Positions 7,025 to 43,500 are shown, counted from the stretch's first letter. The stretch is 64,000 nt of DNA from Planctomycetota bacterium (GCA_023150555.1 JAKLKQ010000025.1:19069-83068); one strand, 5' to 3'. Program-made: numbers and translations. Notes: generated by a model not told the origin, from the sequence alone.

Positions 7025-7203
7025 GTGCCTGGGTTTCCGCCGACAAAAAGGGCTTTTGGGGCGAGCGTATTGGAATGGGCGGCTGCTTGCAATTAAACGC
7101 TCGAGAATTGTCCCCAAAGGACGGGATCGTCCAAACGGATCTGGACCCGGGGCCCGGGCATGGGTATGAGAATATTTGAACCGGGGAGCTCACCCGCTGC
7201 GCC

Positions 7204-11900: not shown

Positions 11901-13399
11901 GGTTCAAGACCGGCGACCTGGGCCGCCAGGACCGCGACGGCTACCTGTACATCACCGGCCGCGTGAAGGACACCATCGTCAGCTCGGCGGGCAAGAAGGT
12001 CTTCCCCGACGAGCTGGAAGTCAAGCTGCGTGGGCTGCCGCGCGTGAAGGAGTACTGCGTGATCGGCCTGCCGGCGCGTGGCGGCGGCGAAGCCGTGGCG
12101 TTGGTGGCCGTGCCCGAACTGGACAGCAAGCCCAACCGCAAGCGGATCCGCGAGGCCGTCGAGAAACTCAACAAGGAACTGCCCAGCTACCAGCGAGTCG
12201 CGCGCATCGAGTTCCTGGCCGAGGACCTGCCCAAGACCAGCACGTTGAAGGTCAAGCGCAGCAAGGTCCGCGACCGGTTCCTGGCCGCCGGCGAAGGCGC
12301 CGAGGCACTAGAGACCGGCGCCGCCGAAGCCGCCTCGCCGGCGCAGACCCAGGGCCGTGCGTACCGCGAGGTCGTCGAGGCCATCGCCGAGATCACCGGG
12401 CTGGATCCCGAGGAGATCGGTCCCGAGCGCAAACTCGAGTTGGACCTGGGCCTGGACAGCATCGGCCGCGTGGACCTGATCGGGAAACTGGAGCTGCGCC
12501 TGAACGTCGGCATTCCCGAGGAAGCCGTCGCGAAGCTGTGGACGGTGCAGGACGTCGCGCGCGTCGCCGAAGAAGCCGTCGCGAAGGGCGGCGCGCACGT
12601 CAGCGGCGCCAAGCGCGCGGTCACCACCGTCGGCGACCGTGTGTGGGAGAAGCGGCGCGGCGGCGAGGGCGGCAACGGCGACCACCTGCTGCAGCCGTCG
12701 ATCTCGAAGGCCGTCGTCGGCGGGGCGCTCACGACCACCGCGAAGGTCCTCTTCAACACATGGCTGCGCATCGACGCATACGGCATGGAGCACCTGCCGC
12801 TGACCGGCGCGTACATCCTGGCTTCGAACCATTCGAGCCACCTCGACACTGCCGCCGTACGCGAGGTGCTGGGCGGCCGCGCGGCTTCTCTGCACGTGAT
12901 GGGCGCCAAGGACTACTTCTTCGATACGCGATTCAAGAGCTGGTTCTTCAGCTCCGCCTTCAACGTGCTGCCGTTCGAGCGCGAGGAGAGCAGCCTCGAC
13001 GGCCTGGCGCTGTGCCGACGCGCCCTGGAAGACGGAAAGCCGCTGCTGATCTTCCCCGAAGGCACGCGCTCGGTCACCGGCAAACTGCAGAGCTTCAAGT
13101 CCGGCGTCGGGCTGCTGGCCCTGGAACTCGACTACCCGATCATCCCCGTGTGCCTCTCGGGCACCTACGAGGCCCTGCCGAAGGGCCGCAGCGTGCCGCG
13201 CCCCAGCCACGTGCAGGTGCGCTTCGGCCCGCCCGTCGACTTCAGCCGCCTGCGCGCGCGCCGAAAGGCCGCACAGCAGGAGAAGGATGCAAAGGCCAAG
13301 GGCGGGAAGAAGGAGAAGGCCCGCAGCATCGACCTGTACCGCGAGGCCGCCGAACAGATCCGCCAGGCCGTCGCGCGGATGAAGCCCGGCGGCGCGTAG
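8957..13399 (+). CDS. multidomain lipid-biosynthesis enzyme: fatty acyl-CoA/ACP reductase (FAR) - acyl-AMP/CoA ligase - ACP - 1-acyl-sn-glycerol-3-phosphate acyltransferase (ElbD-like)
   Basis: N-terminus [20 protein letters not shown]...YLLIRPR is the NAD(P)-binding male-sterility/FAR domain. [18 protein letters not shown] and [10 protein letters not shown]...WFKTGDLG are the AMP-binding ligase. [11 protein letters not shown] is the phosphopantetheine attachment Ser of an [13 protein letters not shown] and FPEGTRS are the PlsC HxxxxD and FPEGTR motifs. Confidence 0.8.
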
Positions 13400-30076: not shown

Positions 30077-30844
30077 ATGGAACAGTTCCTAGAAGTCGCC
30101 TTCAACCTGCCGACCGTGATCTACACGGTGCTGCTGATCTTCGTGCTGCTCTTCTGGGGCTCGGTGCTGGCCGCGGGCCTCGATCCACACATGTTCGACG
30201 CGCATGTCGAGGTGCCGGCGCATGTGGACGTACCGAGCGACGTGCACGTGGATGCCCATGTCGACGGTCACGTTGACGCGCATGGAGAGGTGCATGCCGA
30301 GAAGGACGTGGCGGTACACGGCGGCGGGCACTGGGTGATGGTCCTGTTGACGACGCTGAACATCGGAACGGTGCCGGTGACGGTGGTGCTGAGCTGTGCG
30401 GTCTTCGCGGCCTGGACCACGAGCATGGCTCTGAACCTTTTCGTCGCCGAAAATGTCGCAATCTACCTGCATCCGATCGTCTGGATCGCGGCGGCGCTGG
30501 CGAGCGCGGGGGTGACGGGGCTCATCGTCGCCGCACTGGCCACCCGTCCGCTGAGACCGCTCTTCAAGAACTACACGCAGACGGCGCAAGAGGACCTGAT
30601 CGACCAGATCTGCACGATCCGCACCAGCCACGTGGACGAGAAGTTCGGACAGGCGGAATACGAAACCGACGGCGCGCCGCTGATCCTCTCGGTCTGCTGC
30701 CGGCGCAAGAACAACGACCTGACCAAGGGCGTTAAAGCGGTGATCGTCGGCTACAACCGGAGAACCGACACGTACGAGGTAGCCAAGCTGGATCCCGAAA
30801 GCTCCAGGAAGAAGTCCGTAAAGAGGACGGCGAAGGCCGACTGA
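30077..30844 (+). CDS. NfeD/YqiJ-like inner-membrane protein with C-terminal OB-fold and a His/Asp-rich insert
   Basis: N-terminal TM helices, a HVDxHVDxHVD repeat, more TM helices, then a C-terminal soluble beta domain (KGVKAVIVGYNRRTDTYEV). RBS gggagga. Directly upstream of the flotillin gene, as in yqiJ-yqiK. Confidence 0.7.
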   Translation: MEQFLEVAFNLPTVIYTVLLIFVLLFWGSVLAAGLDPHMFDAHVEVPAHVDVPSDVHVDAHVDGHVDAHGEVHAEKDVAVHGGGHWVMVLLTTLNIGTVPVTVVLSCAVFAAWTTSMALNLFVAENVAIYLHPIVWIAAALASAGVTGLIVAALATRPLRPLFKNYTQTAQEDLIDQICTIRTSHVDEKFGQAEYETDGAPLILSVCCRRKNNDLTKGVKAVIVGYNRRTDTYEVAKLDPESSRKKSVKRTAKAD

Positions 30845-30913
30845 ACTGCAAACAAGAGAGAGGCGGACGGCGGCCCTAGTCGGGCGGCTGGACGCGAACA
30901 AAGGAGAGCAGCA

Positions 30914-33088
30914 ATGGACCTGATCATGGCGAATTTCCCGTTGGTGCTCGGAGATTGGAGCAATTGGCTCTCCGGCGGTTATTTACTCATACTCGTCTGC
31001 ACCGTTGTGGCTGGAATTTTGGGCTTAGGGTTCCTGAAGTGGCTGCTGGGCTTCTACCGCAAGGTGGAACAGGGCAAGGCTCTGATCATCAACAAGACCC
31101 GCGGCAATATCGACGTCTCTTTCACCGGCGGGCTGGTGCTGCCGGTGCTGCACCTCGCCGAGGTGATGGACCTCTCGGTGAAGAAGATCGAGATCGACCG
31201 GCGCGGCAAGGAAGGCCTGATCTGCAAGGACAACATCCGCGCGGACATCACGGTCGCCTTCTTCGTGCGCGTCAATCCCACCCAGGACGATGTGAAAAAG
31301 GTGGCGCAGAGCATCGGGTGTGCGCGCGCCAGTGCCCAGGAGACCCTGGAGCAACTCTTCAACGCCAAATTCTCCGAAGCCCTGAAGACCGTTGGCAAGC
31401 TGATGAACTTCATCGAGTTGTACGAGAATCGCGAGAACTTCCGCGAACGCATCATTGAGGTCATCGGCAAGGACCTGAACGGCTACTTCCTGGAAGACTG
31501 CGCCATCGACTACCTCGAACAGACGCCCATCGAGAGCCTGGACAAGGAGAACATCCTCGACGCCGAAGGCATCAAGAAGATCACGATGCTGACCGTAGAG
31601 GAGCACATCCAGGCGAACAAGCACCGCCGCCGCGAAGACAAGGAAGTCACCGAGGAGAACGTACGAACCCGCGAGACGATCCTGGAGCTGGAACGCGCGC
31701 AGGCGCAAGCCGAGCTGGAGCAGAAGAAAAATATTGAGGTCATCCGTGCCGAGCAGGAAGCGGAGTCTGCGATCAAGGCCGCCGAACAGCGGCGCCAGTC
31801 CGAGATGGCGCGCATCGAGGCCGAGAAGGAGATCTCCAAGTCCAACGAGGTCCGAGAGCGTGACGTCGCCGTCGCGGCCAAGGACAAGGAGCGCGCCATC
31901 GCCGTCGAGAACGAGAATGTCGAGCGCGCGCGCCAGAAGGCCGCCATCGACCGCGAGCGCGAAGTCACGCTGCTGGCCATCGAGAAGGAGAAGGCCGTCG
32001 AAGTCGAAAAGAAGAACATCCAGGACGTGATCCGCCAGCGCGTCGCGGTAGAAAAGACCGTCGCGGTGGAGGAGGAAAACATCAAGGACGTGCGCGCCAT
32101 CGCTACCGCCGAACGAGGCAAGAAGGTCGCCATCACCGCAGCCGAACAGCACGCGCAGGAAGCCCTGGTGAAGGACATCAAGGCCGCCGAGGCACAGGAG
32201 ATCGCCGCCAAGCACCTGGCTGCGCAAGAGATCACCATGGCGCAGGCCGAACTGGCCAAGAGCGAGAAGCTGGCGCTGGCCAAGATGAAGATGGCCGAAG
32301 GTGTCGCGGCCGAGGCCGCCGCCGAAGGCCTGGCGAAGGTTCGGGTGAAGGAAGCCGACGCGGACGCCACCGAAAAGATGGGCAAGGCCGAGGCCGTCGC
32401 CATTCGCGAAAAGGGCAAGGCCTCCGCTGACGCGAACAAGGAAGGCCGCCTGGCAGAGGCGACTGGCATTGAAGCCGAAGGCTTGGCGAAGGCCAAGGCG
32501 CGAACCGCCGACGCAGCCGCCAGCAAGGAATACTACCTGGCAGAGGCCGAAGGCATCCGCGAGAAGGCTCTCGCCGAGGCCGAAGGCATCGACAAGAAGG
32601 CCGACGCCATGAAGCAGCTCGACGAACGCACCATCTCGCACGAGGAGTTCCGCATCGGACTGGACGTTCAGAAGCAGATCGACAACTGGCGCATTCACGC
32701 CGGCCAGGCCGTTGGCTTGGAACAGGCCAAGGTCCTGGGCGAGGCCCTGAAGAACGCCAAGTTCGAGATCGTCGGCGGCGACGGCGAGTTCTTCGACCGC
32801 TTCGTCAGCGCCGTCGGCGCCGGCAAGAGCCTGGATGCCTTCGTCGACCGCAGCGAAGTCGTCCAGAAGCTCGGCAAGGAGTACCTCAACGGCGACGGGA
32901 ACTTCATGGAGGACCTCAAGGAGATCCTCGTGAATGCCAACCTCGGCACCGAGGATCTGAAGAATATCTCCATCACGGCGCTACTGACCAAGCTGATGGC
33001 CGGTGCCACCGACGACGCAACCAAGTCGAAACTGGCGCGGCTGCTGGCCGTCGCCGAGGACGGCGGCAAGAAGAAGGGCCGCCGCTGA
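30914..33088 (+). CDS. flotillin-like SPFH/band-7 protein (YqiK/FloT-type) with long EA-rich coiled coil
   Basis: ALIINKTRGNIDVSFTGGLVLPVLHLAEVMDLSVKKIEIDRRGKEGLICKDNIRADITVAFFVRVNP... is near-identical in pattern to E. coli YqiK. N-terminal TM helix. About 350 aa of E/A/K/R coiled coil. Confidence 0.85.
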   Translation: MDLIMANFPLVLGDWSNWLSGGYLLILVCTVVAGILGLGFLKWLLGFYRKVEQGKALIINKTRGNIDVSFTGGLVLPVLHLAEVMDLSVKKIEIDRRGKEGLICKDNIRADITVAFFVRVNPTQDDVKKVAQSIGCARASAQETLEQLFNAKFSEALKTVGKLMNFIELYENRENFRERIIEVIGKDLNGYFLEDCAIDYLEQTPIESLDKENILDAEGIKKITMLTVEEHIQANKHRRREDKEVTEENVRTRETILELERAQAQAELEQKKNIEVIRAEQEAESAIKAAEQRRQSEMARIEAEKEISKSNEVRERDVAVAAKDKERAIAVENENVERARQKAAIDREREVTLLAIEKEKAVEVEKKNIQDVIRQRVAVEKTVAVEEENIKDVRAIATAERGKKVAITAAEQHAQEALVKDIKAAEAQEIAAKHLAAQEITMAQAELAKSEKLALAKMKMAEGVAAEAAAEGLAKVRVKEADADATEKMGKAEAVAIREKGKASADANKEGRLAEATGIEAEGLAKAKARTADAAASKEYYLAEAEGIREKALAEAEGIDKKADAMKQLDERTISHEEFRIGLDVQKQIDNWRIHAGQAVGLEQAKVLGEALKNAKFEIVGGDGEFFDRFVSAVGAGKSLDAFVDRSEVVQKLGKEYLNGDGNFMEDLKEILVNANLGTEDLKNISITALLTKLMAGATDDATKSKLARLLAVAEDGGKKKGRR

Positions 33089-33194
33089 GCGAAGTGCCGG
33101 TCATGCTGGGCTGCGCCCGTGTGTCACGAAGGACATGCGGGCGCGGCGCTTAGCGGCCTGCGCACCCCGGTTCCGAAAGCGATGACCGAGTCCC

Positions 33195-36100
33195 ATGGCT
33201 GAAACGTCCGCACCCGCGAAGCCCGAGGCCGCCCAGGAACGCCAGGCGGCGGAGGCCCAGGCCGCCCAGGCCGGCGGCGCCTACGAGGTCCTGCGCGACC
33301 GTCTGGGCGAACAGTGCCTGGAGTTGCGTAACCGCGTCGACAAACTGAACGCGCGGCGCCGCGAGATCTTCGGCGGGCAGGAAACGAAGCTCATTGGCAG
33401 CCCGCGCATCCAGACCGAACACAACTGCAAGCCCCACGACATCATCCACCTCGGCAACAAGTTGATCGTCGGGTTCGACGTCTACCTGGGCATGAAGAAG
33501 GAGACGGAAGTCTCCGATATCCTGGGCGTGTACGAGTTCGACGGCCAGCAGTTCTACCCTCTGGGCATCGACTTCCTGTCCGATCCGAAGTTCCAGTTCG
33601 ATTTCAAGGACCTCTACAAGTACTACAAGGAGGCCCGGCTTCTTCAGCTGCGCAACACCGGCACGCACCTGAAGTTCGTCTTCCAAACCGGCCGCGCGCA
33701 CTCGGACGTGAAGGTCCTGCGCTTCCTGATCAAGCAGGACAAGTCGGTCCAGTACGCCGACAACCGCGGCGAGAACGTCTATCCGGAGCAGTTCGACTTC
33801 AAGTGGACGCGCACCACGCGCGACGACCACGTCGAGGGCCGCTACCCGCACGTCTCGATCGCGGACGAGCTTTTCGTCGAATGCGTCGGCGGCGACCTGA
33901 CCGTGAAGGTCGAGGACAACACCGACTCCGGCGAAGGCATCTATTCCGAACCGGTGGCCGAGATCAACCAGTCGCTGAACGACGCTGAGATCTACTACGT
34001 CCTGCTCGACAACCTGGTCCTGTTGAAGATCAAGCCCTTCGGCGAGGAGCAGTACCGCTACCTTGTGTACAGCAAACTCACGCAGAAGGTCCGGCGGGTC
34101 GACGCCCTGCGCCTGGCCTGCGTGCAACTGCCCGAGGGGCACGGCATTATTTTCCCCGGCGGCTACTTTCTGCAGACCGGCGAGTGCAAGATGTTCTCCG
34201 ACGACGTGGAGAACATGGAGTTCTTCAAGTCCATCAAGTCCGCCAACGGCGAGGACGTGCTGTACCTCTTCCACGACCGCCGAACCGGGCGCTACATCCT
34301 GCTGCAGTACAACCTGATCAACAAGACAGTCGATACGCCCATCGTGTGCCACGGCTATTCGCTGTATTCCGACGGCAAGCTGGTGATTCTGCGCGAGGCC
34401 GGGCAGGAGCCGGCCAAGAGCCACCCTGTGCAGATCTGGCAGACGGCCTTCATAGGCGAGGACTACCAGGCGCCGATGAAGGACGAAAGCTTCATCGGCA
34501 AGATCGGCAACAAGGATCTGGTCACGGGCATCTCCGACGCGCTGACCATCGTGAAACTCGCGCGCGAGACCGCGCCCACGGTCGCCGCCTACGCGGACCT
34601 GGTGAAGCAGACTGACGCCGTGCTGAATCGCTACCACTGGCTGGGCAGCGGCGACTGCTTCAATCTCGAGGAAGTGCTCAAGCAGATCCGCGAGACCGGC
34701 AACACCATCATCGACGAGTTCGAGAAGGTCCTGCAGATCCGCAAGGCCACTGGCGTGCGCATCGACGCCTTCGAGAGGGAAGTCGACGCGCACTTCCGCG
34801 AGTTCTTGCCCGAATCGCTGCAGGACGTCGACCAGCATGCCCAGGCGCTGGCGCGCATCCGCCACCTGCGCGGCACGGCGATCTCGCTGCGCGAGCTGCG
34901 GTACTCGGACCTGGAGCGCCTTCAAGGCGTGGAGAAGCGCCTGGTCGAGGCCTTCGACGTGCTGTCCGAGCGCACCGTCGGCTTCCTGCGCAGCCCCGAC
35001 GCCCTGAAGCCCTACGCCGCACGCCTGGACGAGACGCTTGCTCGCATCGAGGCGCTGAAGAAGGTCACCGACGCCGACGCCCTGCGCGAGGAGCTGGACG
35101 GACTGGGCGAGGGCCTGGACCTGCTCACCGAGATCGTCAACAATCTCAAGATCGACGACGCCACCGCCCGCACCGAGATCATCGAGGCCCTGGGCGAGAT
35201 CTACGCGCACCTCAACCGCGCCAAGGCGCTGCTCGCCAGCCGCCGCAAGGATCTCCTGGGCAGGGAACTGGTCGCCGAGTTCGGCGCGCAGTTCAAGCTG
35301 CTGGGGCAGGGCGTTGCCAACTACCTGGGCCTGGCCGATACGCCCGAGAAGTGCGACGACCACCTGACCAAGCTGCTGGTGCAGGTCGAGGAGTTGGAGG
35401 CGAAGTTCTCCGACTTCCCCGAGTACGTCGAGAAGCTGACGGCCAAGCGCGAGGAGGTCTACGACGCGTTCAGCGGCCGCAAGCAGCAGCTGCTCGACGA
35501 GCGCCAGCGCAAGGCTGCCGCCCTGGCCGAGGCCGCCGACCGCATCCTGAAGGGCGTCGCGCGCCGCGCCGCCGCCTTCAAGAGCGACGACGAGTTGAAC
35601 GGCTACTTCGCCGGTGATGCGATGGTGATGAAGGTCCGCGACATTATCGAGAAGCTGCGCGAGTTGGGCGACAGCGTCAAGGCCGACGATCTTTTCTCGC
35701 GCCTGAAGAGCGCGCGCCAGGATGCGGGCCGAAGCCTCCGCGACAAGCTCGAGATCTTCGACGAAGGCGACATCATCAAGCTCGGAAAGCGCCGCTTCAA
35801 CGTCAACACCCAGCCGCTGGACCTGACCCTGGTGCGCCGCGACGAGGCCATGTGCTTCCACCTGACTGGCACCGACTACTACCAGCCGGTCACGGACGCC
35901 GAGTTCCTGAAGACCAGGCCGTTCTGGACGCAGGACCTGCCCAGCGAGAACGAGCACGTCTACCGCGCCGAGTACCTCGCGTGGAAGATGCTCGACGATG
36001 CGGAGTCCGGCCGCAGCGGGCTGGACATCGCGAAGCTCGAGGCCGCCGCCGCCGGCAAGAAGCTCGACGCGTTGCTGGACCTCGTGCGCGAGTACGCTTC

Positions 36101-38726
36101 GGGCCTGTACGACGAAGGCTACGACCGCGGCGTGCACGACCACGACGCCGCGCTGATCCTGCGCGCGGCGCTTTCGCTGCGCGCCGAGTGCGGCCTGCTG
36201 CGCTTCGATCCGCGCAACCGCGCGCTGGCGTGTCTCTTCTGGAGCCACTTCGCGGACGAAGGCCGGCGCGTGCTGATCGAACGCAAGGCGCGCAGCCTGG
36301 GTTCGATGAAGCTCGTCTTCCTCAACGGCGGCGGCTCGCGGGTCTTCCAGCACCAGCTTGCCATGTGGATGCAGACTTTCTGCGAGACGCACGCGCTTCC
36401 GTGCGAGGGCGCGGACTTCGTCACGGCCGCGCGGTACCTCTTCCTGGAGCTCTCGGACGCTAAGTCCACGGGCTTCGCGACGTCGCAGGAGGCCGCCGCG
36501 CTGCTCGACGCCTTCCTGACGCATCTGGACGGCACGCCCGCGCGCAAGAGCCTGGAGAGCGACCTCAAGGCGCTGGAAGGCGATCTGCACAATGCCCTCG
36601 ACCTGGCCCACACATGGCTCTCGTCGTTCTACGACGCCTCCGAGCGCAAGGCCGCAGGCCGGTACCTCGATGAGGCCATCGCGCTGCTGCTGACCAGGCA
36701 GAAGCTCCCGCGAAGTACGGTCGTCGCGAAGACCGGCGCCGAAGTGAGCGGCTTGCTGGGCCAGCACCCGATACTGGAAAGCGGGAAGCTCAATCTGCAA
36801 CTCGACGAGTTCCTGCAGCGCGTGGGCGCGTTCGCAGCGAACACGGCGCCTGCGTATCGCACCTACCAGGAGCAGCGCAAGCTCCTGCTGGAGCGCGAGC
36901 GCGAACGACTGCGCCTGGACGAGTTCCGCCCGCGGACGCTCAGCAGCTTTGTGCGCAACCGCCTGATCAACGACGTGTACCTGCCGGTGCTGGGCGACAA
37001 CCTGGCCAAACAGATGGGCGAGGCCGGCGAGCAGAAACGCACCGACTTGATGGGCCTGCTGCTGCTGATCTCGCCGCCGGGCTATGGCAAGACGACGCTG
37101 ATGGAGTATCTCGCCAACCGCCTGGGCCTGATCTTCATGAAGATCAACGGCCCGGCGCTGGGCCACGAGGTCCTTTCGCTGGATCCGAACGAGGCGCCCA
37201 ACGCGACGGCGAAGGAGGAGGTCCAGAAGCTGAACCTCGCCTTCGAGATGGGCAACAACGTGATGATCTACATCGACGACATCCAGCACACCCATCCCGA
37301 GTTCCTGCAGAAGTTCATCTCGCTGTGCGACGCGCAGCGCAAGGTGGAAGGCGTCTATAACGGCCGCGCGCGCACCTACGACCTGCGCGGCAAGAAGGTT
37401 TGCGTCGTGATGGCCGGCAACCCGTACACCGAAAGCGGCGCGCGCTTCCAAATCCCGGACATGCTCGCCAACCGCGCAGAAACCTACAACTTGGGCGACA
37501 TCATCGGCGGGCGCCGCGACCTCTTTGAGCTCAGCTACCTCGAGAATTCGATGACATCCAACTCGGTGCTGAACCCCCTGGCCACCCGCGAGCAGAAGGA
37601 CTTCTACAGGCTCGTCGAAATGGCCGACGGCGGCGAGGTCCCCGAAAGCGAACTCTCGCACGACTACTCCGGCGCGGAATTGAAGGAGATCCTCGATACC
37701 ATCAAGCGCCTGCGCGTGGTCCAGCGCGTGGTGCTGCGCGTGAACGAGGAGTACATCCGCTCGGCGTCGCAAAAGGACGAGTTCCGCACCGAGCCGCCGT
37801 TCAAACTCCAGGGCAGCTACCGCGACATGAACAAGATGGCATCCAAGGTTCTGCCCGTGATGAGCGAGCAGGAACTGGAAGGCGTGATTCGCGACCACTA
37901 CCGCGGCGAGTCGCAGACGCTAACCACCGGCGCCGAGCACAACCTGCTGAAGCTCGCCGAGATCCGCGGGCATCTGGCCGGTACGGAACTGGAGCGCTGG
38001 GACGAGATCAAGCGCACCTTCCGCCAGCACCAGTCGATGATGGGCGCTGACAAGGACGACCAGGCCGCGATGGTGGTTTCGCAACTGGCGTCCTTCAACA
38101 CCAACCTCGACCGCATCAAGGACGTAATCGCAAAGGCCGCGCAGAAGAACAACGGCGACCTGGGCCCGCAGTTGGCCGAGGCGCTTGCGCGTTTCGGCGA
38201 GGGCATGCAGGAGGCCGGCGACCAGCGCGCGGCGCAGATGGGCGAGCAGGTCGCACGCGCGTTCGAGAAGGTCGCGCAGGCGCTGGCCAAGCGCGACCGC
38301 GGCGAAGGCGACGAGGCGCAGGTGGCTGCCGCGCTGGACAAGGTCACCCAGGCGCTGGGCGCGCAGAACGCCGCACAGCCGAAGGTCGAGATCGTCAATA
38401 CGCTGCCGAAGTATTACGGCAACCTCTACAAGCACCACATCGACGTCATCGAAGCGGTGCTGATCCCGCTGATCAAATCGATGGACCACCAGATGGCGGA
38501 AGTCGACAACCTGCACGTGACGCTGGAAGGCGTGCTGGGCCGCCTCAACGAACTTGCCTCCCGCCACACGCAGCTCCAGGGCAAGGTCCACCACGAACAC
38601 GGCGAGGAAGAGGACGACGAACACGAGCCCGACGTCCCGCCCGCGCCCAAGCCGGCACCTGCCACCCGCAAGTCCGCCCCCAAGAACGCGCCCAAGCTGC
38701 GCGATCCCTTTAAGCGCGAGAAGTAG
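33195..38726 (+). CDS. giant 1843-aa protein with a single MoxR/AAA_5-like AAA+ ATPase module near the C-terminus (otherwise unassignable)
   Basis: Walker A ISPPGYGKTTLMEYLANRLG, Walker B VMIYIDDIQH, sensor-1 VVMAGNP, Arg finger region ANRAETYNLGD (about aa 1240-1420). N-terminal about 470 aa is beta-rich with no motif I recognise. The middle is about 700 aa helical/coiled-coil. Acidic His/Glu-rich C-terminal tail. Confidence 0.75.
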   Translation: MAETSAPAKPEAAQERQAAEAQAAQAGGAYEVLRDRLGEQCLELRNRVDKLNARRREIFGGQETKLIGSPRIQTEHNCKPHDIIHLGNKLIVGFDVYLGMKKETEVSDILGVYEFDGQQFYPLGIDFLSDPKFQFDFKDLYKYYKEARLLQLRNTGTHLKFVFQTGRAHSDVKVLRFLIKQDKSVQYADNRGENVYPEQFDFKWTRTTRDDHVEGRYPHVSIADELFVECVGGDLTVKVEDNTDSGEGIYSEPVAEINQSLNDAEIYYVLLDNLVLLKIKPFGEEQYRYLVYSKLTQKVRRVDALRLACVQLPEGHGIIFPGGYFLQTGECKMFSDDVENMEFFKSIKSANGEDVLYLFHDRRTGRYILLQYNLINKTVDTPIVCHGYSLYSDGKLVILREAGQEPAKSHPVQIWQTAFIGEDYQAPMKDESFIGKIGNKDLVTGISDALTIVKLARETAPTVAAYADLVKQTDAVLNRYHWLGSGDCFNLEEVLKQIRETGNTIIDEFEKVLQIRKATGVRIDAFEREVDAHFREFLPESLQDVDQHAQALARIRHLRGTAISLRELRYSDLERLQGVEKRLVEAFDVLSERTVGFLRSPDALKPYAARLDETLARIEALKKVTDADALREELDGLGEGLDLLTEIVNNLKIDDATARTEIIEALGEIYAHLNRAKALLASRRKDLLGRELVAEFGAQFKLLGQGVANYLGLADTPEKCDDHLTKLLVQVEELEAKFSDFPEYVEKLTAKREEVYDAFSGRKQQLLDERQRKAAALAEAADRILKGVARRAAAFKSDDELNGYFAGDAMVMKVRDIIEKLRELGDSVKADDLFSRLKSARQDAGRSLRDKLEIFDEGDIIKLGKRRFNVNTQPLDLTLVRRDEAMCFHLTGTDYYQPVTDAEFLKTRPFWTQDLPSENEHVYRAEYLAWKMLDDAESGRSGLDIAKLEAAAAGKKLDALLDLVREYASGLYDEGYDRGVHDHDAALILRAALSLRAECGLLRFDPRNRALACLFWSHFADEGRRVLIERKARSLGSMKLVFLNGGGSRVFQHQLAMWMQTFCETHALPCEGADFVTAARYLFLELSDAKSTGFATSQEAAALLDAFLTHLDGTPARKSLESDLKALEGDLHNALDLAHTWLSSFYDASERKAAGRYLDEAIALLLTRQKLPRSTVVAKTGAEVSGLLGQHPILESGKLNLQLDEFLQRVGAFAANTAPAYRTYQEQRKLLLERERERLRLDEFRPRTLSSFVRNRLINDVYLPVLGDNLAKQMGEAGEQKRTDLMGLLLLISPPGYGKTTLMEYLANRLGLIFMKINGPALGHEVLSLDPNEAPNATAKEEVQKLNLAFEMGNNVMIYIDDIQHTHPEFLQKFISLCDAQRKVEGVYNGRARTYDLRGKKVCVVMAGNPYTESGARFQIPDMLANRAETYNLGDIIGGRRDLFELSYLENSMTSNSVLNPLATREQKDFYRLVEMADGGEVPESELSHDYSGAELKEILDTIKRLRVVQRVVLRVNEEYIRSASQKDEFRTEPPFKLQGSYRDMNKMASKVLPVMSEQELEGVIRDHYRGESQTLTTGAEHNLLKLAEIRGHLAGTELERWDEIKRTFRQHQSMMGADKDDQAAMVVSQLASFNTNLDRIKDVIAKAAQKNNGDLGPQLAEALARFGEGMQEAGDQRAAQMGEQVARAFEKVAQALAKRDRGEGDEAQVAAALDKVTQALGAQNAAQPKVEIVNTLPKYYGNLYKHHIDVIEAVLIPLIKSMDHQMAEVDNLHVTLEGVLGRLNELASRHTQLQGKVHHEHGEEEDDEHEPDVPPAPKPAPATRKSAPKNAPKLRDPFKREK

Positions 38727-38941
38727 CTGCCGCCTGTAGGCGCCTTGTACGCCCGCTGCGCAGGGGGCCGCCAGAAGGCCTTTTGCACGGAAGTTCCCAT
38801 CCTTTCAACTCGTTTTAAATGAATAGGTTACGGATTCGGTCAGGCAGGCCTGGCCGCTCGGCGCCACGGCATCGGGTTTGCATTCCAATTCCTTGCCTGA
38901 GGGGATGGAAGCAGGGACTTATTGGAACGGGAGTGCGCGCC

Positions 38942-39358
38942 ATGTTCTTTCGCAAGGTTCCTCCTCTGCCGCCCGCGGCACCCGGCCCGGTGGTGATGCT
39001 GGTTGAGGACGATCTGGGCGTCTGCCTGGCGCTGACCACGTGGCTTCGGCAGCAGCGGCTGCGGGTGGTGCATGCGGCTTCCCGTGTCGAGGCCCTGGAA
39101 CTGCTGGGCGACATGAACGCCATCCAGGAGCGCTTCGACGGGCTGGTCACCGATTACCGTTTGCCCGATGGCACCGGCTGCGACGTGGTGCGGGCCTTCC
39201 GCAAGGCGCATCCTGAACTGCCTGCCGCCTTGATTACGGCCTACGCCGAGCCCGCGATCTTCGGTTGGACCGAGCGCAACAGCGTGGCCCTGTTCGAGAA
39301 ACCCCTCAACCTGAAGCGAATCCAGGACTGGCTGGGCGCGTTTGCCGTGAGCGCATGA
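38942..39358 (+). CDS. single-domain response regulator (CheY-like receiver)
   Basis: VVMLVEDDLGV...LVTDYRLPDGTG...LITAY: phospho-acceptor Asp in the DYRLPD context, conserved T and K (EKPLNLKR). No output domain. Confidence 0.7.
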   Translation: MFFRKVPPLPPAAPGPVVMLVEDDLGVCLALTTWLRQQRLRVVHAASRVEALELLGDMNAIQERFDGLVTDYRLPDGTGCDVVRAFRKAHPELPAALITAYAEPAIFGWTERNSVALFEKPLNLKRIQDWLGAFAVSA

Positions 39359-39570
39359 CGAGGCAAATAGGCTTCTGCGCACATGTGTAATCTGCCCTAT
39401 CTTTGACTCGACGCACCTAAGTCTTTTTTTATCAATAAGTTGCAGTGCAAGTCCTTAGCCGGATTTTTGCACCCGTCCACCTATTCCATGCGACATAATT
39501 GCAGGAGTCCTGCGGGCAGGGCTCCTTGGGGAATGGTATAAGCTGAGTCCTTTGAATAAGGAGTTTGGGC

Positions 39571-40272
39571 ATGAGCCGCTGGAATGGATTGGTCCTTTCG
39601 GTTGCAGGTCTGGTCCTTCTTCCTAGCCTGGCGAGCCGCGCCGCGGAGGAGCCCAAGGACTGGGAGATTCCCGATCCCACCAAGGTCGAGAAGAAGGACG
39701 GCGACGGCGACAAGCACGAGGTGAAGAAGGACGGCGGCGGCGACAAGCACGAGTGGAAGAAGGACGGCGGCGGTGACAAGCACGAGTGGAAGAAGGACGA
39801 TGGCGATGGGGAGCACAGGGACAAGCCACGCGGCGAGGCCAAAGAACTGAAGTCCGTGCCCGACGAGTTGAAAGGATTCGGTGGACAGGTTTACGGGGAG
39901 GTGATGGCGAAGGATAACAATTTTATTACCTTCAAGGTGTACGAAGTTGCCAAGGTTGGAGAAGATTGGAACAAGGCCAGCAAGCCCTATTCGATCGAGA
40001 ACACCATCATCAAGATTGCCCCGAACCAAGAGCGCAATAAGGTCAACCAGAACCATGTTGCATACCTTCGTGCGGTCGAAGTAGGTACCAAGACTGGCCT
40101 GTTCATCAAGTCGCATGACAGCGGCGGCGGCTTCGTGTTGGTCGAGCTGACCTGGGAGCAGCGCAAGGTGGCCGGTCTGCCGGTTGATGGCGAACACAAG
40201 GACGGCGGCGACCGCCCGAAGGGCAAGGACGGCGGCGACAAGCCCCGAGGCGAGGGCGGCGACCGGCGCTAA
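39571..40272 (+). CDS. small secreted protein with KDGGGDKHEWK tandem repeats
   Basis: Strong RBS taaggag 8 nt upstream. Signal peptide MSRWNGLVLSVAGLVLLPSLASRAAEE. Three and a half 11-aa repeats, a beta-rich core, and a C-terminal KDGGDRPKGKDGGDKPRGEGGDRR tail. Confidence 0.6.
   Translation: MSRWNGLVLSVAGLVLLPSLASRAAEEPKDWEIPDPTKVEKKDGDGDKHEVKKDGGGDKHEWKKDGGGDKHEWKKDDGDGEHRDKPRGEAKELKSVPDELKGFGGQVYGEVMAKDNNFITFKVYEVAKVGEDWNKASKPYSIENTIIKIAPNQERNKVNQNHVAYLRAVEVGTKTGLFIKSHDSGGGFVLVELTWEQRKVAGLPVDGEHKDGGDRPKGKDGGDKPRGEGGDRR
39691..39816 (+). repeat. 33-nt tandem repeat (3 copies plus a partial) encoding KKDGGGDKHEW
   Basis: aagaaggacggcggcggcgacaagcacgagtgg repeated with 1-3 substitutions per copy. 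Confidence 0.8.
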
Positions 40273-40338: not shown

Positions 40339-43300
40339 ATGCCATCCGCCCAAGGGGCCGCGCAGCCCCGGATCGTCGGGGGCTTCGAGATCCTCTCCAA
40401 GATCGGCAGCGGGGCCATGGGCGCCGTCTTCAAGGCGCGCCAAGTCTCGATGGACCGGGTGGTGGCGCTGAAGCTGCTGCCGCCCAAGATCGCGAACAAG
40501 GATCCGGTCTTCGTCGATCGTTTCATCCGCGAAGCGCGCGCTTCGGCGAAGCTCAACCATCCCAACATCGTCCAGGGCATCGAGGTGGGCAAATGCCCGG
40601 AGACCTCGCTCTACTACTTTGCCATGGAGTACGTGGACGGCCCGACGGTCAACGGGCTTCTTAAGAAGGAAGGAGCCTTCGACGAACGGCGCGCGCTGGA
40701 AATTGTGCTTGGCGTGGCCAAGGCGCTGGTCTGCGCCGAGCGCAAGGGCATCGTCCATCGCGACATCAAGCCAGACAACATCCTGATCGACTCGCGCGGC
40801 GACCCGAAACTCGCCGATCTGGGTCTGGCCAAGCGCGTGTCCGACAATGCCGGCGGCGTGAGCATGTCCCTGCCTTCGCTGGGACCCGCCGCCAACGCGA
40901 ACCTGACGCAGGCCGGTTCGACGGTCGGGACGCCGCATTACATGTCGCCGGAACAGGCCGAGGGGAAGGCCGAAGAAGTCGACATCCGCACCGACCTGTA
41001 CGCCCTGGGCGCTACCCTGTACCACATGGTCACCGGCCGCACGCCCTACAGCGGCAACTCCGCCGTTGAAATCCTGGTCCAGCATCTCACCGCGCCCGTG
41101 CCCGATCCTTCGGCCGCGAACCCGGACCTCAGCCGAACGACCTGCGAGATCATCGAACGCCTGATGCAGAAGGCGCCGGCCGACCGTTACCAGAATGCCG
41201 ATATGCTGGTTCGCGAACTGGAGGCGGCGCTGGCTTCGCCCCTGCGGTCCGGCAGCGCCACCACGCGCTCGAGAAAGCCCGTGGGCGTCAAGACCACCGG
41301 GCCGCGCCAGCCTCTGGGCTTCGACACCACGCGCAAGCGCCCCGGCGTCGGCGGCACCACCGGGCGGCTTGCGCCGGTGGGCGAACGCCGCGCGCCGCGT
41401 GCGGGGCGCGCGGGTGCTTCCGGCGGCGGCAACCCGGCGCTGATGTACGGCGCCATCGGCGGCGGCGTGCTCCTGCTGCTTCTGCTGTTGGCGATGGGCG
41501 GCGGGTCGAGCACGCCTGCGCCGTCCAGCGCCCGGCGATCCGACAGCGGGACGCCGCCGGCTGGCTCCGTCGAACAGAAGACCGGCGCCATCCTGCCCGC
41601 GGTAGGCAAGCCGGTGAATTCAGCCAAGACCGCGCCCGTGGCGGCGGTCCAGGATCCCAAGGGCGCCGCGGGTCCCGCAGCGGCGCCGGCCTTCGAGACC
41701 TTGCAGACGGTGGCGCAGGCGCGCTGGCGCGGAGCCGTGAAAGCGCTGGACCTCTCGGAATCCGAACGCGTCCTCGGTTTGGTGTCCGACGAACTGAAAC
41801 TCGATCCGGCCATGCGCTCGCGGCTGGCGGGAGTGCTGGAAGACGAACTGCTCCAGCGGGCCAAAGCCCTGGGGGGCGAGATCGGACAACTCGTGCAGGA
41901 CGGGAAGCTTGACCAGGCCGCAGGCGTGCTGGGTGCCGCCGACGCCAGCGGAACGCTTTCCGGGCCGGGCAGCTGCGAAGCGCGGAAGGTCGTTTCGGCG
42001 CTGACTGCGTTTGTGGACGCGGCCCGGCAGCAGGCGCTGCCCAAGGACCCGGCCGCCTTCCACGCGTTGCTCGACAAGGTCGCCGCGCGGCTGGGCGAGC
42101 AGGACCGTGACGGCGCGGCTCGCGACTTGGCGTCCGGCATGGCGCAGCCCGAACTGAAGCCGTGGGAGGAAGCGCTGAGGCTCCAGAAGACGGCGCTGGG
42201 ATGGCTGGGCGAACTGGACGCGGCCATCCTTGAGGGCGCTAAGAAGCTGGCCGATGGGCGCGACTACGAGCTGGCTTTTGAAGATCCCAAGAAATCCGCG
42301 TATGCATTGGGTAAAGCTCCCGCAGGGAAATTGCCCATGACGCTGCGCGAAGTCACCGCCGACAAGATCGCGTTAGCCAGTGGCGGCGCCGAGTTCAGCG
42401 TTCGCGTCCTGGAACTTTCGCGCACCACGCGCCGCGCTCTGACCGCACTCTCCGCCGACGGCGACGCCAAGGCTCAGGCCGCGCTGGCTGTGAAGGGGGC
42501 GTACGAGGATCTCCTTCGCTGGCCAACGTACGCCGGCGCCGACAAGGCCGAGTTGGCGGACGTGGAGCGCGTCCTGCAGGAAGCCCGCGCCGACGGTGCG
42601 GCGGAGGAACTCTTCCTGCCGCTGGAGCCCTGGCTGGCACGCGTCAAGGCTGCGGCCGCGCCGCCCCCTCCGGCGGTGGTTCAGGCGCCCGCGAAGCCGA
42701 CGACCAAGACACTGGACCTCGGCAACGGCGTGACGATGGAACTGGTGCTGGTACCGGCGGGGTCCTTTCAGATGGGTACCAGGGCCGGACAATTCCTGCC
42801 CGATCCCATGCGCGATGAAGTGGGTTGGGCATTCAACGAGATGCCCCGGCATGAAGTCGTGATCTCCAAGCCGTTCTTTATCGGCAAATACGAGGTCACC
42901 CAGGCGCAGGTGCGCGTATTCTTCCCGAACCTGCCCAGCCGTGCGTTCACGGGCGACGACATGCCCATGCACAGCCTCAACTGGAATATGGCTCGGGGCT
43001 TTTGCGAGGTCCTGTCGCGGAGAACGGGTGTGGCCGCACGGCTGCCCACCGAGGCTGAATGGGAGTACGCCTGCCGCGCCGGGCAGGATGGGCCCTTCGT
43101 CCGTTGGGACGACCCGCGGGTGGACGGCGACCGTGGCACGTGGGAGCGCCTCAACCGGCAGGCCATGGACGCGGTGGCCTGGTACGACGAGAACAGCAAC
43201 CAGGAACTTCACGCGGTGGGCCAGAAGCAGCCTAACGCCTGGGGCCTGTACGACATGCTCGGCAACGTCGCCGAGTTCTGTTCGGACTTCTACGGGTCCT

Positions 43301-43500
43301 ACTCGGGCGAAAAGGCGACCGATCCGCAGGGGCCGGGCCAAGGCGGCGAGCGCATCGTTCGCGGCGGCGGCCCCAAGGCCCCCTTTTGGCGTTGCCGCCC
43401 CGAAAAGCGGCAAAAGGCAACGCAAGCCGAACGCAGCGTGGGCCTGGGCCTGCGCATCGTGATTCCTGCCGACGACGACGGGCAGTTCGCAAGGCCTTGA
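40339..43500 (+). CDS. Ser/Thr protein kinase fused to a C-terminal formylglycine-generating-enzyme (FGE/SUMF1-type) domain
   Basis: Kinase: GSGAMGAVFKA, HRDIKPDNIL, DLGLAK, GTPHYMSPE. A long Pro/Ala-rich linker with a TM segment (GGGVLLLLLLLAMGGG). FGE domain: RHEVVISKPFFIGKYEVTQAQ, RLPTEAEWEYACRAG, GLYDMLGNVAEFCSD, RIVRGGG. Confidence 0.85.
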   Translation: MPSAQGAAQPRIVGGFEILSKIGSGAMGAVFKARQVSMDRVVALKLLPPKIANKDPVFVDRFIREARASAKLNHPNIVQGIEVGKCPETSLYYFAMEYVDGPTVNGLLKKEGAFDERRALEIVLGVAKALVCAERKGIVHRDIKPDNILIDSRGDPKLADLGLAKRVSDNAGGVSMSLPSLGPAANANLTQAGSTVGTPHYMSPEQAEGKAEEVDIRTDLYALGATLYHMVTGRTPYSGNSAVEILVQHLTAPVPDPSAANPDLSRTTCEIIERLMQKAPADRYQNADMLVRELEAALASPLRSGSATTRSRKPVGVKTTGPRQPLGFDTTRKRPGVGGTTGRLAPVGERRAPRAGRAGASGGGNPALMYGAIGGGVLLLLLLLAMGGGSSTPAPSSARRSDSGTPPAGSVEQKTGAILPAVGKPVNSAKTAPVAAVQDPKGAAGPAAAPAFETLQTVAQARWRGAVKALDLSESERVLGLVSDELKLDPAMRSRLAGVLEDELLQRAKALGGEIGQLVQDGKLDQAAGVLGAADASGTLSGPGSCEARKVVSALTAFVDAARQQALPKDPAAFHALLDKVAARLGEQDRDGAARDLASGMAQPELKPWEEALRLQKTALGWLGELDAAILEGAKKLADGRDYELAFEDPKKSAYALGKAPAGKLPMTLREVTADKIALASGGAEFSVRVLELSRTTRRALTALSADGDAKAQAALAVKGAYEDLLRWPTYAGADKAELADVERVLQEARADGAAEELFLPLEPWLARVKAAAAPPPPAVVQAPAKPTTKTLDLGNGVTMELVLVPAGSFQMGTRAGQFLPDPMRDEVGWAFNEMPRHEVVISKPFFIGKYEVTQAQVRVFFPNLPSRAFTGDDMPMHSLNWNMARGFCEVLSRRTGVAARLPTEAEWEYACRAGQDGPFVRWDDPRVDGDRGTWERLNRQAMDAVAWYDENSNQELHAVGQKQPNAWGLYDMLGNVAEFCSDFYGSYSGEKATDPQGPGQGGERIVRGGGPKAPFWRCRPEKRQKATQAERSVGLGLRIVIPADDDGQFARP

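What the first reader, a model, noticed from the sequence alone, without database searches (positions are those of the whole stretch)
30077..39358. NfeD/YqiJ - flotillin/YqiK - 1843-aa AAA+ giant - orphan receiver: candidate undescribed membrane-microdomain ATPase module
Four co-directional genes with short gaps (70, 106 and 215 nt). The first two are an unmistakable yqiJ-yqiK pair (NfeD-family membrane protein plus flotillin/SPFH scaffold). The third is a very large protein whose only recognisable part is one MoxR/AAA_5-type ATPase module near the C-terminus. The fourth is a receiver-only response regulator. In characterised systems the SPFH/NfeD pair stands alone, and I know of no described partnership between bacterial flotillins and a giant single-AAA+ protein. 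If the linkage is conserved, this would be a new flotillin-organised ATP-driven machine, with the receiver protein giving phospho-relay input. Operon membership is inferred from spacing and orientation only.
Basis: partly seen in the sequence, partly recalled or inferred. Interest (0 to 1): 0.8.

Follow-up and report, generated by a model that had tools for sequence, protein, structure and literature searches.

The report
Flotillin-linked giant AAA+ ATPase operon
This is a real, widely conserved three-gene set (small membrane protein, flotillin scaffold, 1,843-residue ATPase) that a 2024 comparative-genomics paper already noted but nobody has studied experimentally; the neighbouring response-regulator gene does not belong to it.

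Summary
The four ORFs and the gaps between them are as described. Genes 1 to 3 form a strongly conserved cassette. A flotillin gene lies directly upstream of the giant gene in 63 of 76 evaluable loci found from the giant. The giant lies directly downstream in 60 of 68 independent loci found from the flotillin. The loci span Planctomycetota, Myxococcota, Acidobacteriota, Gammaproteobacteria, Bacteroidota, Actinomycetota and Deinococcota. The receiver gene is found next to none of the 170 related loci and is not part of the module.

Ravi et al. (mSystems 2024, PMC11237479) already describe this gene order: YqiJ/YuaF, Band-7/flotillin, "beta-propeller + coiled-coil + AAA-ATPase". It occurs with CesT/Tir-PspA or as an "abbreviated operon". 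The window holds the abbreviated form.

I found no experimental study. The most likely function is ATP-driven remodelling of a flotillin/NfeD membrane scaffold, and this is inferred. Verdict: a new member of a known, uncharacterised kind, of moderate interest.

The parts
30077..30844 (+). Gene 1: YqiJ/YuaF-like short NfeD-type membrane protein (255 aa). It has 3 TM segments, a His/Asp-rich loop between TM1 and TM2, and a C-terminal beta-rich (NfeD-like) domain.
   Evidence: ORF and GC3. TM segments. Aligns end to end with the 'DUF1449 family protein' of Hymenobacter and 23 other neighbours of giant homologs. The profile matches E. coli YqiJ, hhalign probability 91%, E=1e-6. Found upstream of the flotillin gene in 55/64 and 64/69 loci.
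30914..33088 (+). Gene 2: flotillin-like SPFH scaffold (724 aa). It has an N-terminal TM segment, a Band_7 domain, a long Ala/Glu-rich coiled coil and a subfamily-specific C-terminal region of about 160 aa.
   Evidence: Band_7 E=1.2e-6. 30% identity to YqiK, E=4e-44. hhalign with YqiK covers residues 1-481 only. No Pfam Flot domain, unlike YqiK. The C-terminal region is conserved across phyla.
33110..33147 (+). Intercistronic stem-loop (16-bp stem) between the flotillin and giant genes, with no U-tract after it.
   Evidence: Fold z=-3.05, 0 of 200 shuffles fold as well. A different-sequence 18-bp hairpin sits at the same place in the closest genome relative L001 (z=-5.16). L090 and L089 have none. 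The pattern scan called no terminator in this gap.
33195..38726 (+). Gene 3: 1843-aa cytosolic DUF3686/DUF7902/AAA+ protein, labelled 'DNA repair ATPase' in NCBI.
   Evidence: Pfam. 100% identical to an NCBI Planctomycetes MAG protein; at least 3631 homologous 90%-identity clusters. 909 representatives at 50% identity. No TM segment. No solved relative found by sequence.
33321..34637 (+). Giant residues 43-481: DUF3686, modelled as a beta-propeller preceded by a long N-terminal helix.
   Evidence: PF12458 E=4e-178. The AlphaFold model is beta-rich over residues 65-416, with 10-residue block mean pLDDT mostly 80-92. Foldseek hits to WD40/EED, prolyl-oligopeptidase and Vps18 propellers.
34491..36695 (+). 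Giant residues 433-1167: long helical/coiled-coil region (includes DUF7902 at residues 602-685), a small beta unit (877-898) and a helical domain (902-1167).
   Evidence: Secondary structure of model m0831180e2427. PF25472 E=1.7e-27.
37032..37694 (+). Giant residues about 1280-1500: single MoxR-like AAA+ module. Walker A is SPPGYGKT, Walker B is IYIDDIQ, sensor-1 is MAGNPYT, with a conserved Arg in PDMLANRA and a beta-hairpin before the sensor-1 strand.

Best explanation
Genes 1 to 3 are the 'abbreviated' form of a conserved bacterial membrane-associated module: YqiJ/YuaF-type NfeD protein, flotillin-type SPFH scaffold and a giant beta-propeller/coiled-coil/MoxR-like AAA+ ATPase. The receiver gene is an unrelated neighbour.

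Proposed mechanism (inferred):
1. The flotillin, anchored by its N-terminal TM segment, oligomerises into an SPFH cage or cup on the cytoplasmic face of the inner membrane.
2. The 3-TM partner binds it through its C-terminal NfeD-like domain.
3. The soluble giant is recruited to this scaffold. The likely contacts are its N-terminal propeller or helical arms and the flotillin's subfamily-specific C-terminal domain.
4. The giant uses its single MoxR-like AAA+ module, probably as a ring oligomer, to assemble, remodel or dismantle the scaffold or the proteins held in it. In operons that also encode CesT/Tir-PspA, these would include PspA (ESCRT-III-like) polymers. The likely setting is membrane stress.

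The lack of an aromatic pore-loop motif and the invariant Asp-Asp Walker B suggest a remodeller or switch rather than a threading unfoldase.

Shown: gene identities, domain architecture, two-way conserved linkage, absence of the receiver elsewhere, and prior description. Inferred: physical interaction, oligomeric state, substrate and physiological trigger.
For: Linkage:
- From the giant: flotillin adjacent and upstream on the same strand in 63/76 evaluable loci, and 3 more within 6.5 kb.
- From the flotillin, in an independent metagenome sample: giant within 1.5 kb downstream in 60/68, and 2 more about 2.1 kb downstream.
- All-against-all clustering of flanking ORFs finds only these three genes conserved across the 80 genome loci.
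- Annotated examples come from Bacteroidota, Pseudomonas pQBR103, Streptomyces and Deinococcus. Proteus, Vibrio and Nonomuraea examples were confirmed by tblastn. Acidobacteriota and a second Planctomycetota example also fit.
- Intergenic gaps are often 3-60 nt in relatives.

Prior description: same order and architectures.

Topology: the giant has no TM segment. The flotillin has one N-terminal TM segment and gene 1 has three.

Propeller and helical arms.

Flotillin-specific C-terminal region conserved across phyla and absent from YqiK.

PspA directly upstream in 7 gammaproteobacterial loci, pQBR103 and Hymenobacter.
Against: There is no direct evidence of interaction, co-transcription or ATPase activity.

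13 of 76 giant loci (mostly Sorangium paralogs) and 6 of 68 flotillin loci lack the adjacent partner, so the proteins can exist apart.

In this window a strong hairpin separates the flotillin and giant genes and could attenuate read-through.

No PspA or CesT gene was found in any called gene of the 64-kb window.

MoxR ATPases usually work with a VWA-domain partner, and none is present in the neighbourhood.

The full-length arrangement of domains is uncertain (pTM 0.47 and 0.55).
Confidence: 0.55

Rival explanations
1. One reading: the receiver-only response regulator is part of the module and feeds phosphorylation signals into a flotillin-organised ATPase machine.
For: Same strand, 215 nt downstream. 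A real receiver domain with what look, by my own reading of the translation, like the acidic pocket, phospho-acceptor Asp, Thr and Lys positions.
Against: No tblastn hit (E<=1e-5) to the receiver gene in any of the 80 genome loci, the plasmid or chromid loci, the contigs, or the 80 metagenome loci. This includes the closest Planctomycetota relatives (L001, L090), whose downstream genes differ. The longest gap of the four, with a GC hairpin plus U4 and an AT-rich stretch, lies upstream of the receiver. No histidine kinase domain was found in any called gene of the window.
Confidence: 0.04
2. The database label is right: the giant is a DNA repair ATPase and its position next to flotillin genes is incidental.
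For: The Pfam DUF3686 description and the NCBI product name. Weak RuvB-type hits at the P-loop.
Confidence: 0.03
3. The cassette is an anti-phage or other conflict system that uses a large NTPase and membrane effectors.
For: Large AAA+/NTPase proteins with repeat domains are common in defence systems. Copies occur on plasmids such as pQBR103 and the Hymenobacter, Streptomyces and Deinococcus plasmids. PspA carries the name 'phage shock'.
Against: PADLOC gives only marginal P-loop-level hits (E about 1e-3). There is no homolog in 50,697 phage records. The window context is housekeeping: SecDF, YajC, pyrF, uppS, Trk. Flanks are syntenic within Myxococcaceae and Sorangium, which argues for stable chromosomal inheritance. 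No nuclease or toxin domain is present.
Confidence: 0.05
4. The genes are functionally related and co-regulated, for example all induced by envelope stress, but the giant acts on a different target and never touches the flotillin/NfeD complex.
For: Linkage alone does not prove contact. 13-17% of loci are unlinked. An intercistronic hairpin may uncouple expression levels.
Against: Very tight, same-order, same-strand adjacency across at least seven phyla with gaps down to 3 nt. The linked flotillins form a distinct subfamily with their own conserved C-terminal domain. This is what co-evolving physical partners typically show.
Confidence: 0.15

Closest known systems
PspA-associated operon of Ravi et al. 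[quoted passage not shown]
   Same: Same three genes in the same order with the same domain architectures. A 45%-identical homolog of the giant sits in the full Tir-PspA-DUF1449-flotillin-ATPase arrangement on a Hymenobacter plasmid.
   Different: The window has no CesT/Tir or PspA gene, so it is the abbreviated form. The paper gives only a comparative-genomics description. It does not name DUF3686, assign a MoxR class or report experiments.
E. coli YqiJ-YqiK and B. subtilis YuaF-FloT (YuaG) NfeD/flotillin pairs
   Same: Gene order NfeD-like then flotillin. Homology of both proteins to the E. coli pair.
   Different: E. coli has no giant ATPase downstream; sibD/ibsD follow yqiK. The window flotillin lacks the Pfam Flot C-terminal domain and carries a different conserved C-terminal region. 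It scores 17 bits against the 700-bit FloT equivalog cut-off.
HflK/C-FtsH and prohibitin with m-AAA protease (SPFH cage plus AAA+ machine)
   Same: An SPFH scaffold functionally coupled to an AAA+ ATPase at the membrane. This is the best-established precedent for the proposed logic (literature cited).
   Different: FtsH is a membrane-anchored classical-clade AAA protease. The giant is soluble, has no protease domain, and is MoxR-like with a propeller and long helical arms.
MoxR-class AAA+ chaperones (NorQ, CbbQ, RavA)
   Different: MoxR proteins are about 250-500 aa and work with VWA-domain partners (NorD, CbbO, ViaA). Here the module sits in an 1843-aa protein, no VWA gene is nearby, and Walker B is DD. 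The AAA_5 Pfam score is only just above its cut-off (23.7 against 22 bits).
Vps4 with ESCRT-III (and PspA/Vipp1 as bacterial ESCRT-III)
   Same: An AAA+ ATPase genetically linked, in some operons, to an ESCRT-III-family polymer (PspA) at the membrane. Ravi et al. draw this analogy.
   Different: Vps4 is a classical-clade AAA with a MIT domain. The giant is MoxR-like with no MIT domain. PspA is absent from most giant loci, including the window.

Membership tests
YqiJ/YuaF - flotillin - beta-propeller/coiled-coil/AAA+ operon (Ravi et al. 2024) | [quoted passage not shown] | tested here: met
   published order.
YqiJ/YuaF - flotillin - beta-propeller/coiled-coil/AAA+ operon (Ravi et al. 2024) | ATPase has beta-propeller repeats, coiled coil and an AAA+ domain | tested here: met
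   Models. Propeller hits. AAA+ hits.
YqiJ/YuaF - flotillin - beta-propeller/coiled-coil/AAA+ operon (Ravi et al. 2024) | The ATPase is homologous to the one found in operons with CesT/Tir-PspA | tested here: met
   Hymenobacter plasmid: Tir chaperone, PspA/IM30, DUF1449, 722-aa flotillin-like protein, 'DNA repair ATPase' 45% identical to the giant over 88% of its length. The Dokdonia protein itself could not be fetched.
YqiJ/YuaF - flotillin - beta-propeller/coiled-coil/AAA+ operon (Ravi et al. 2024) | CesT/Tir-PspA dyad adjacent (full form) | tested here: not met
   No PspA or CesT hit in any called gene of the window or by tblastn. The window therefore matches the 'abbreviated operon' form.
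Pfam DUF3686 (PF12458) / DUF7902 (PF25472) family, NCBI 'DNA repair ATPase' | Score above Pfam gathering thresholds over the full-length models | tested here: met
   592.8 bits against 25, and 95.9 bits against 26. Identical to an NCBI protein of that name.
Short NfeD / YqiJ (DUF1449) family | Significant match to YqiJ_N, YqiJ or NfeD Pfam models | tested here: not met
   Window protein: YqiJ_N E=0.31, below cut-off. Only 1 of 25 homologs hits YqiJ_N (E=0.0015) and 1 of 25 hits NfeD (E=0.0024).
Short NfeD / YqiJ (DUF1449) family | Profile-level homology to a bona fide YqiJ, and a multi-TM N-terminal part followed by a C-terminal beta domain | tested here: met
   hhalign of A1 against E. coli YqiJ: probability 91%, E=1e-6, 132 columns spanning TM and C-terminal regions. 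3 TM segments. The homolog in Hymenobacter is annotated DUF1449.
Short NfeD / YqiJ (DUF1449) family | OB-fold structure of the C-terminal domain | not tested
A profile search of PDB sequences found no NfeD structure.
Flotillin (YqiK/FloT, SPFH2) family | N-terminal membrane anchor, SPFH/Band_7 domain and coiled coil | tested here: met
Flotillin (YqiK/FloT, SPFH2) family | C-terminal Flot domain (PF15975); FloT equivalog score | tested here: not met
   No Flot hit even at E<=1, while YqiK scores 6e-41. NF058507 scores 17.3 bits against a 700-bit cut-off. This is a distinct flotillin-like subfamily.
MoxR-class AAA+ ATPases | AAA+ core most similar to MoxR members, with a pre-sensor-1 beta-hairpin | tested here: met
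MoxR-class AAA+ ATPases | Helix-2 insert; VWA-domain partner gene nearby | tested here: inconclusive
   The segment between strand 2 and helix 2 is longer but modelled as loop. No VWA gene appears among the conserved neighbours. AAA_5 scores 23.7 bits against a 22-bit cut-off.
Two-component signalling as part of the module | Receiver gene conserved next to the cassette | tested here: not met
   No hit in any of the 170 related loci.
Known anti-phage defence systems (PADLOC) | Significant match of any component to a defence-system model | tested here: not met
   Only P-loop-level hits, E=9e-4 to 4e-3, 15-17 bits. No phage-encoded homolog.

The most novel reading that the evidence does not exclude
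The giant forms a large ATP-driven assembly on flotillin/NfeD domes. This would be a soluble MoxR-type ring with propeller-tipped helical arms, acting as a bacterial membrane-repair or membrane-remodelling machine. It would be functionally analogous to Vps4 with ESCRT-III or HflK/C with FtsH, but built from unrelated parts. It would give bacterial flotillins their first defined enzymatic partner.
Probability: 0.3. Interest if true: 0.65.

Novelty: new member of a known kind. Interest (0 to 1): 0.4.

Why it matters
What bacterial flotillins actually do is still unclear. This cassette ties one flotillin subfamily to a dedicated ATPase in hundreds of species: 569 hits among species-representative genomes and 909 clusters at 50% identity. 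Public databases label the ATPase 'DNA repair ATPase', and I found nothing to support that name. I found no experiments on it in the searchable literature. Culturable hosts that carry it include Myxococcus, Sorangium, Streptomyces, Proteus mirabilis, Vibrio campbellii and Pseudomonas fluorescens pQBR103. The link between flotillin, NfeD and an ATPase can therefore be tested directly. The window itself adds a Planctomycetota example of the PspA-less form, and shows that the adjacent receiver gene should not be counted as part of the system.

Tried and rejected
- Literature searches for DUF3686, PF12458 and 'DNA repair ATPase' with flotillin found nothing. Searches combining flotillin, NfeD, YqiK or SPFH with AAA+/ATPase found only Ravi et al. 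as relevant. Hinderhofer et al. 2009 describe the YqiJ/YqiK operon without any ATPase.
- A PDB sequence search with the giant gave only weak p97/Cdc48 P-loop hits.
- PADLOC gave no meaningful hit. The phage collection gave no match.
- Direct Pfam and NCBIfam assignment of gene 1 failed, as did a profile search against PDB. Profile-profile comparison with E. coli YqiJ was needed.
- PspA/CesT were sought in the window by tblastn with two PspA queries and one CesT/Tir query, and by Pfam on all called genes. None was found.
- The promoter/terminator pattern scan was at background level and called nothing in the three gaps.
- The AlphaFold-database fold library was not available.
- The unlinked Sorangium and L009 giants have unrelated upstream genes: a DUF4215 repeat protein on the other strand, and a hybrid histidine kinase.
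- A 512-526-aa ORF inserted between flotillin and giant in L122 and L126 has no Pfam match. It is not the HKD phospholipase mentioned by Ravi et al..
- The Dokdonia ATPase cited by Ravi et al. could not be retrieved. Equivalence rests on the identical operon in Hymenobacter.


Full report
**1. Observation**

The window is 59-72% G+C over 2-kb windows.
- 30077-30844 (255 aa)
- 30914-33088 (724 aa)
- 33195-38726 (1843 aa)
- 38819-39358 (179 aa), or 138 aa from the ATG at 38942

All four show the high third-position G+C expected of real genes here (0.76-0.91). The gaps are 69, 106 and 215 nt.

**2. Identity of the four products**

Gene 2 is an SPFH/flotillin-type protein.
- Band_7 scores E=1.2e-6. 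It has one N-terminal TM segment.
- It is 30% identical to E. coli YqiK over 459 residues, E=4e-44.
- A 24-sequence profile aligns with YqiK only over residues 1-481.
- The protein has no Pfam Flot domain, whereas YqiK scores 6e-41. Instead it carries a C-terminal region of about 160 residues that is conserved in relatives from several phyla. It is therefore a distinct flotillin-like subfamily, not a YqiK ortholog.

Gene 1 is less 'unmistakable' than claimed.
- Pfam and NCBIfam give nothing significant. Only 2 of 25 homologs touch YqiJ_N or NfeD weakly.
- It has three TM segments.
- It aligns end to end with the 'DUF1449 family protein' of a Hymenobacter plasmid.
- Its family profile matches E. 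coli YqiJ at 91% hhalign probability, E=1e-6.

Gene 3 is not an orphan with a lone AAA module.
- It matches DUF3686 (E=4e-178, residues 43-481), DUF7902 (E=1.7e-27) and AAA/AAA_5.
- It is 100% identical to an NCBI protein called 'DNA repair ATPase' from a Planctomycetes MAG.

Gene 4 is a genuine receiver domain.

**3. Architecture of the giant**

An AlphaFold model of residues 1-1200 (mean pLDDT 82) shows, in order:
- a long N-terminal helix
- a beta-rich domain at residues 65-416
- very long helices at 433-856
- a small beta unit
- a helical domain up to about residue 1167

Foldseek matches the beta domain to WD40/EED, prolyl-oligopeptidase and Vps18 propellers. Whole-length TM-scores are low, so only the domain types are informative.

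The model of residues 1150-1843 (mean pLDDT 75, core above 90) contains one AAA+ module followed by long helices and a disordered acidic/proline-rich tail.
- Foldseek gives RuvB, NorQ and CbbQ.
- Conserved motifs are SPPGYGKT, IYIDDIQ (Asp-Asp invariant), MAGNPYT and PDMLANRA.
- The giant has no TM segment. No relative has a solved structure detectable by sequence.

**4. Is the linkage conserved?**

Yes, in both directions.

Starting from the giant:
- 569 stretches in species-representative genomes encode relatives.
- Among the 80 best, plus 10 loci from annotated plasmids, chromids and contigs, 76 have enough upstream DNA to judge.
- Of these, 63 have the flotillin gene within 1.2 kb upstream on the same strand, 3 have it 5-6.5 kb upstream, and 10 lack it. 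Nine of those ten are Sorangium loci, apparently second paralogs. Their upstream genes are unrelated.
- The gene-1 homolog precedes the flotillin in 55 of 64 loci.

All-against-all clustering of flanking ORFs finds only these three genes conserved across the 80 loci. Everything else is shadow ORFs or clade-specific synteny.

Starting independently from the flotillin subfamily in metagenome contigs:
- 60 of 68 evaluable loci have the giant starting within 1.5 kb downstream, and 2 more have it about 2.1 kb downstream.
- The gene-1 homolog is upstream in 64 of 69.

The taxa include Planctomycetota, Myxococcota, Acidobacteriota, Gammaproteobacteria (Arenicella, Zooshikella, Cellvibrionaceae, Proteus, Vibrio, Pseudomonas pQBR103), Bacteroidota (Hymenobacter), Actinomycetota (Streptomyces, Nonomuraea) and Deinococcota.

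Gaps between flotillin and giant are often 3-60 nt.

The family has 909 representatives at 50% identity (262 at E<=1e-30). Full-length members are consistently about 1600-1950 aa.

**5. The receiver gene**

The receiver gene has no counterpart in any of the 170 related loci. This includes the closest Planctomycetota relatives, where different genes follow the giant. It follows the longest gap, which contains a short GC hairpin plus U4 and an AT-rich stretch. No histidine kinase was found in the window. It is an unrelated neighbour.

**6. Prior knowledge**

Ravi et al. (mSystems 2024, PMC11237479; bioRxiv 2020) describe an operon class that combines:
- CesT/Tir-PspA
[quoted passage not shown] - a 3TM YqiJ/YuaF protein

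[quoted passage not shown] The Hymenobacter plasmid locus reproduces the full arrangement: Tir chaperone, PspA/IM30, DUF1449, a 722-aa flotillin-like protein, then a 'DNA repair ATPase' 45% identical to the window's giant. So the published ATPase and the DUF3686 family are the same.

PspA also lies upstream in pQBR103 and in seven gammaproteobacterial loci, but not in the window.

No other paper in the library mentions this ATPase, and none reports experiments. The claim of an 'undescribed' module is therefore not upheld. The module is described but uncharacterised.

**7. Mechanism**

Shown:
- three co-directional, tightly and reciprocally linked genes
- two membrane-anchored products whose soluble parts are predicted to be cytoplasmic, and one large soluble MoxR-like ATPase with a propeller and long helical arms
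- a flotillin subfamily with its own conserved C-terminal domain

Inferred:
- The flotillin/NfeD pair forms an SPFH cage on the inner face of the membrane, as solved for HflK/C, QmcA-YbbJ and eukaryotic flotillins (literature cited).
- The giant docks on it and uses ATP to assemble, remodel or dismantle the scaffold or its clients, including PspA polymers where these are encoded.
- I saw no aromatic-hydrophobic pore-loop motif in the stretch after strand 2 (my own reading of the sequence). With the invariant DD Walker B, this argues for a remodeller or switch rather than a threading unfoldase.
- I put about 0.9 on the identification and about 0.35 on this specific mechanism.

**8. Co-transcription in this window**

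The pattern scan finds no terminator in the gaps. The flotillin-to-giant gap, however, holds a 16-bp stem-loop at 33110-33147 without a U-tract (z=-3.05).

The closest genome relative has a different-sequence 18-bp hairpin at the same position (z=-5.16). Two other relatives have none.

This could be a partial terminator or an RNA-stabilising element. Either would set a high ratio of flotillin to ATPase, which would fit a many-subunit cage served by few ATPase rings. That reading is speculative.

**9. Rivals**

- 'DNA repair ATPase': no support beyond the name.
- Defence system: no PADLOC or phage signal, and a housekeeping context.
- Functional but non-physical coupling: cannot be excluded without experiments.

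**10. Verdict**

The module has already been noted in the literature, and the receiver is not part of it. The window adds a Planctomycetota member of the PspA-less form. Interest is moderate. The system is widespread, carries an apparently unfounded database name and is experimentally untouched. It offers a concrete handle on bacterial flotillin function.

Noticed in passing
window 38942-39358 (+): Stand-alone receiver-domain protein. By my reading of the translation, the acidic pocket, phospho-acceptor Asp, Thr and Lys positions are all present. No histidine kinase was found in the window, and the gene is absent from all 170 related loci, so it is an orphan response regulator unrelated to the cassette.
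   Followed up: yes
window 33110-33147; L001 about 9930-9971: Strong intercistronic hairpins between the flotillin and giant genes in two Planctomycetota (16 bp, z=-3.05; 18 bp, z=-5.16). The sequences differ but the position is the same, and neither has a U-tract. L090 and L089 lack one. They could be attenuator or mRNA-stabiliser elements.
   Followed up: partly
window 32591-33085 (flotillin residues about 560-724): Flotillins linked to the giant lack the Pfam Flot domain of YqiK. They share a different conserved C-terminal region (HEEFR..., IVGGDG.FFDRF motifs) across phyla. This is a candidate docking site for the giant.
   Followed up: partly
window 30182-30331 (gene 1 residues about 36-85): The loop between TM1 and TM2 is a His/Asp-rich repeat (HVD/AHVD units). 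Relatives carry (EGAA)n or Asp-rich low-complexity sequence there. It could bind metal or protons.
   Followed up: no
L026, L031, L032, L034, L035, L040, L041, L051, L058 (Sorangium) and L009: Giant homologs with no flotillin or NfeD gene within 10 kb upstream. Other Sorangium loci (L027, L030, L039) have them, so Sorangium probably carries a second, unlinked paralog.
   Followed up: partly
L122 9734-11272; L126 3803-5383: In two metagenome loci a 512-526-aa ORF with no Pfam match is inserted between the flotillin and the giant.
   Followed up: partly
L061, L066, L067, L068, L074, L075, L077; L082 643-1341; L081 3962-4666: A PspA/IM30 gene lies upstream of the cassette in gammaproteobacterial and Bacteroidota loci, directly upstream of the NfeD-like gene in most. 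It is absent from the Myxococcota and Planctomycetota loci. In pQBR103 the cassette ends a longer YjfI-PspA-rhomboid-DUF2491-DUF350-DUF1190-glutathionylspermidine synthase operon.
   Followed up: partly
window 8957-13399 (+): A 1480-aa fusion of fatty-acyl reductase (NAD_binding_4 and Sterile), AMP-binding, PP-binding and acyltransferase domains. From memory it resembles myxobacterial ElbD-type ether-lipid synthases; this was not tested.
   Followed up: no
window 4196-7117 (-): A Na+/H+ exchanger fused to TrkA_N and two PTS EIIA-2 domains, which is an unusual regulatory fusion.
   Followed up: no
window 39565-40272 (+) and 40339-43500 (+): A 235-aa protein with a signal-peptide-like N-terminus and KKDGGGDKHEW repeats has no Pfam match. 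It is followed by a Ser/Thr kinase fused to an FGE-sulfatase domain.
   Followed up: no
L018; L086; L088: Apparent record labelling oddities. The locus of 'Comamonas sp. KCTC 72670' looks like those of Myxococcus. The plasmid collection lists a 4.09-Mb Proteus mirabilis record and an 11.85-Mb Nonomuraea record as plasmids.
   Followed up: no
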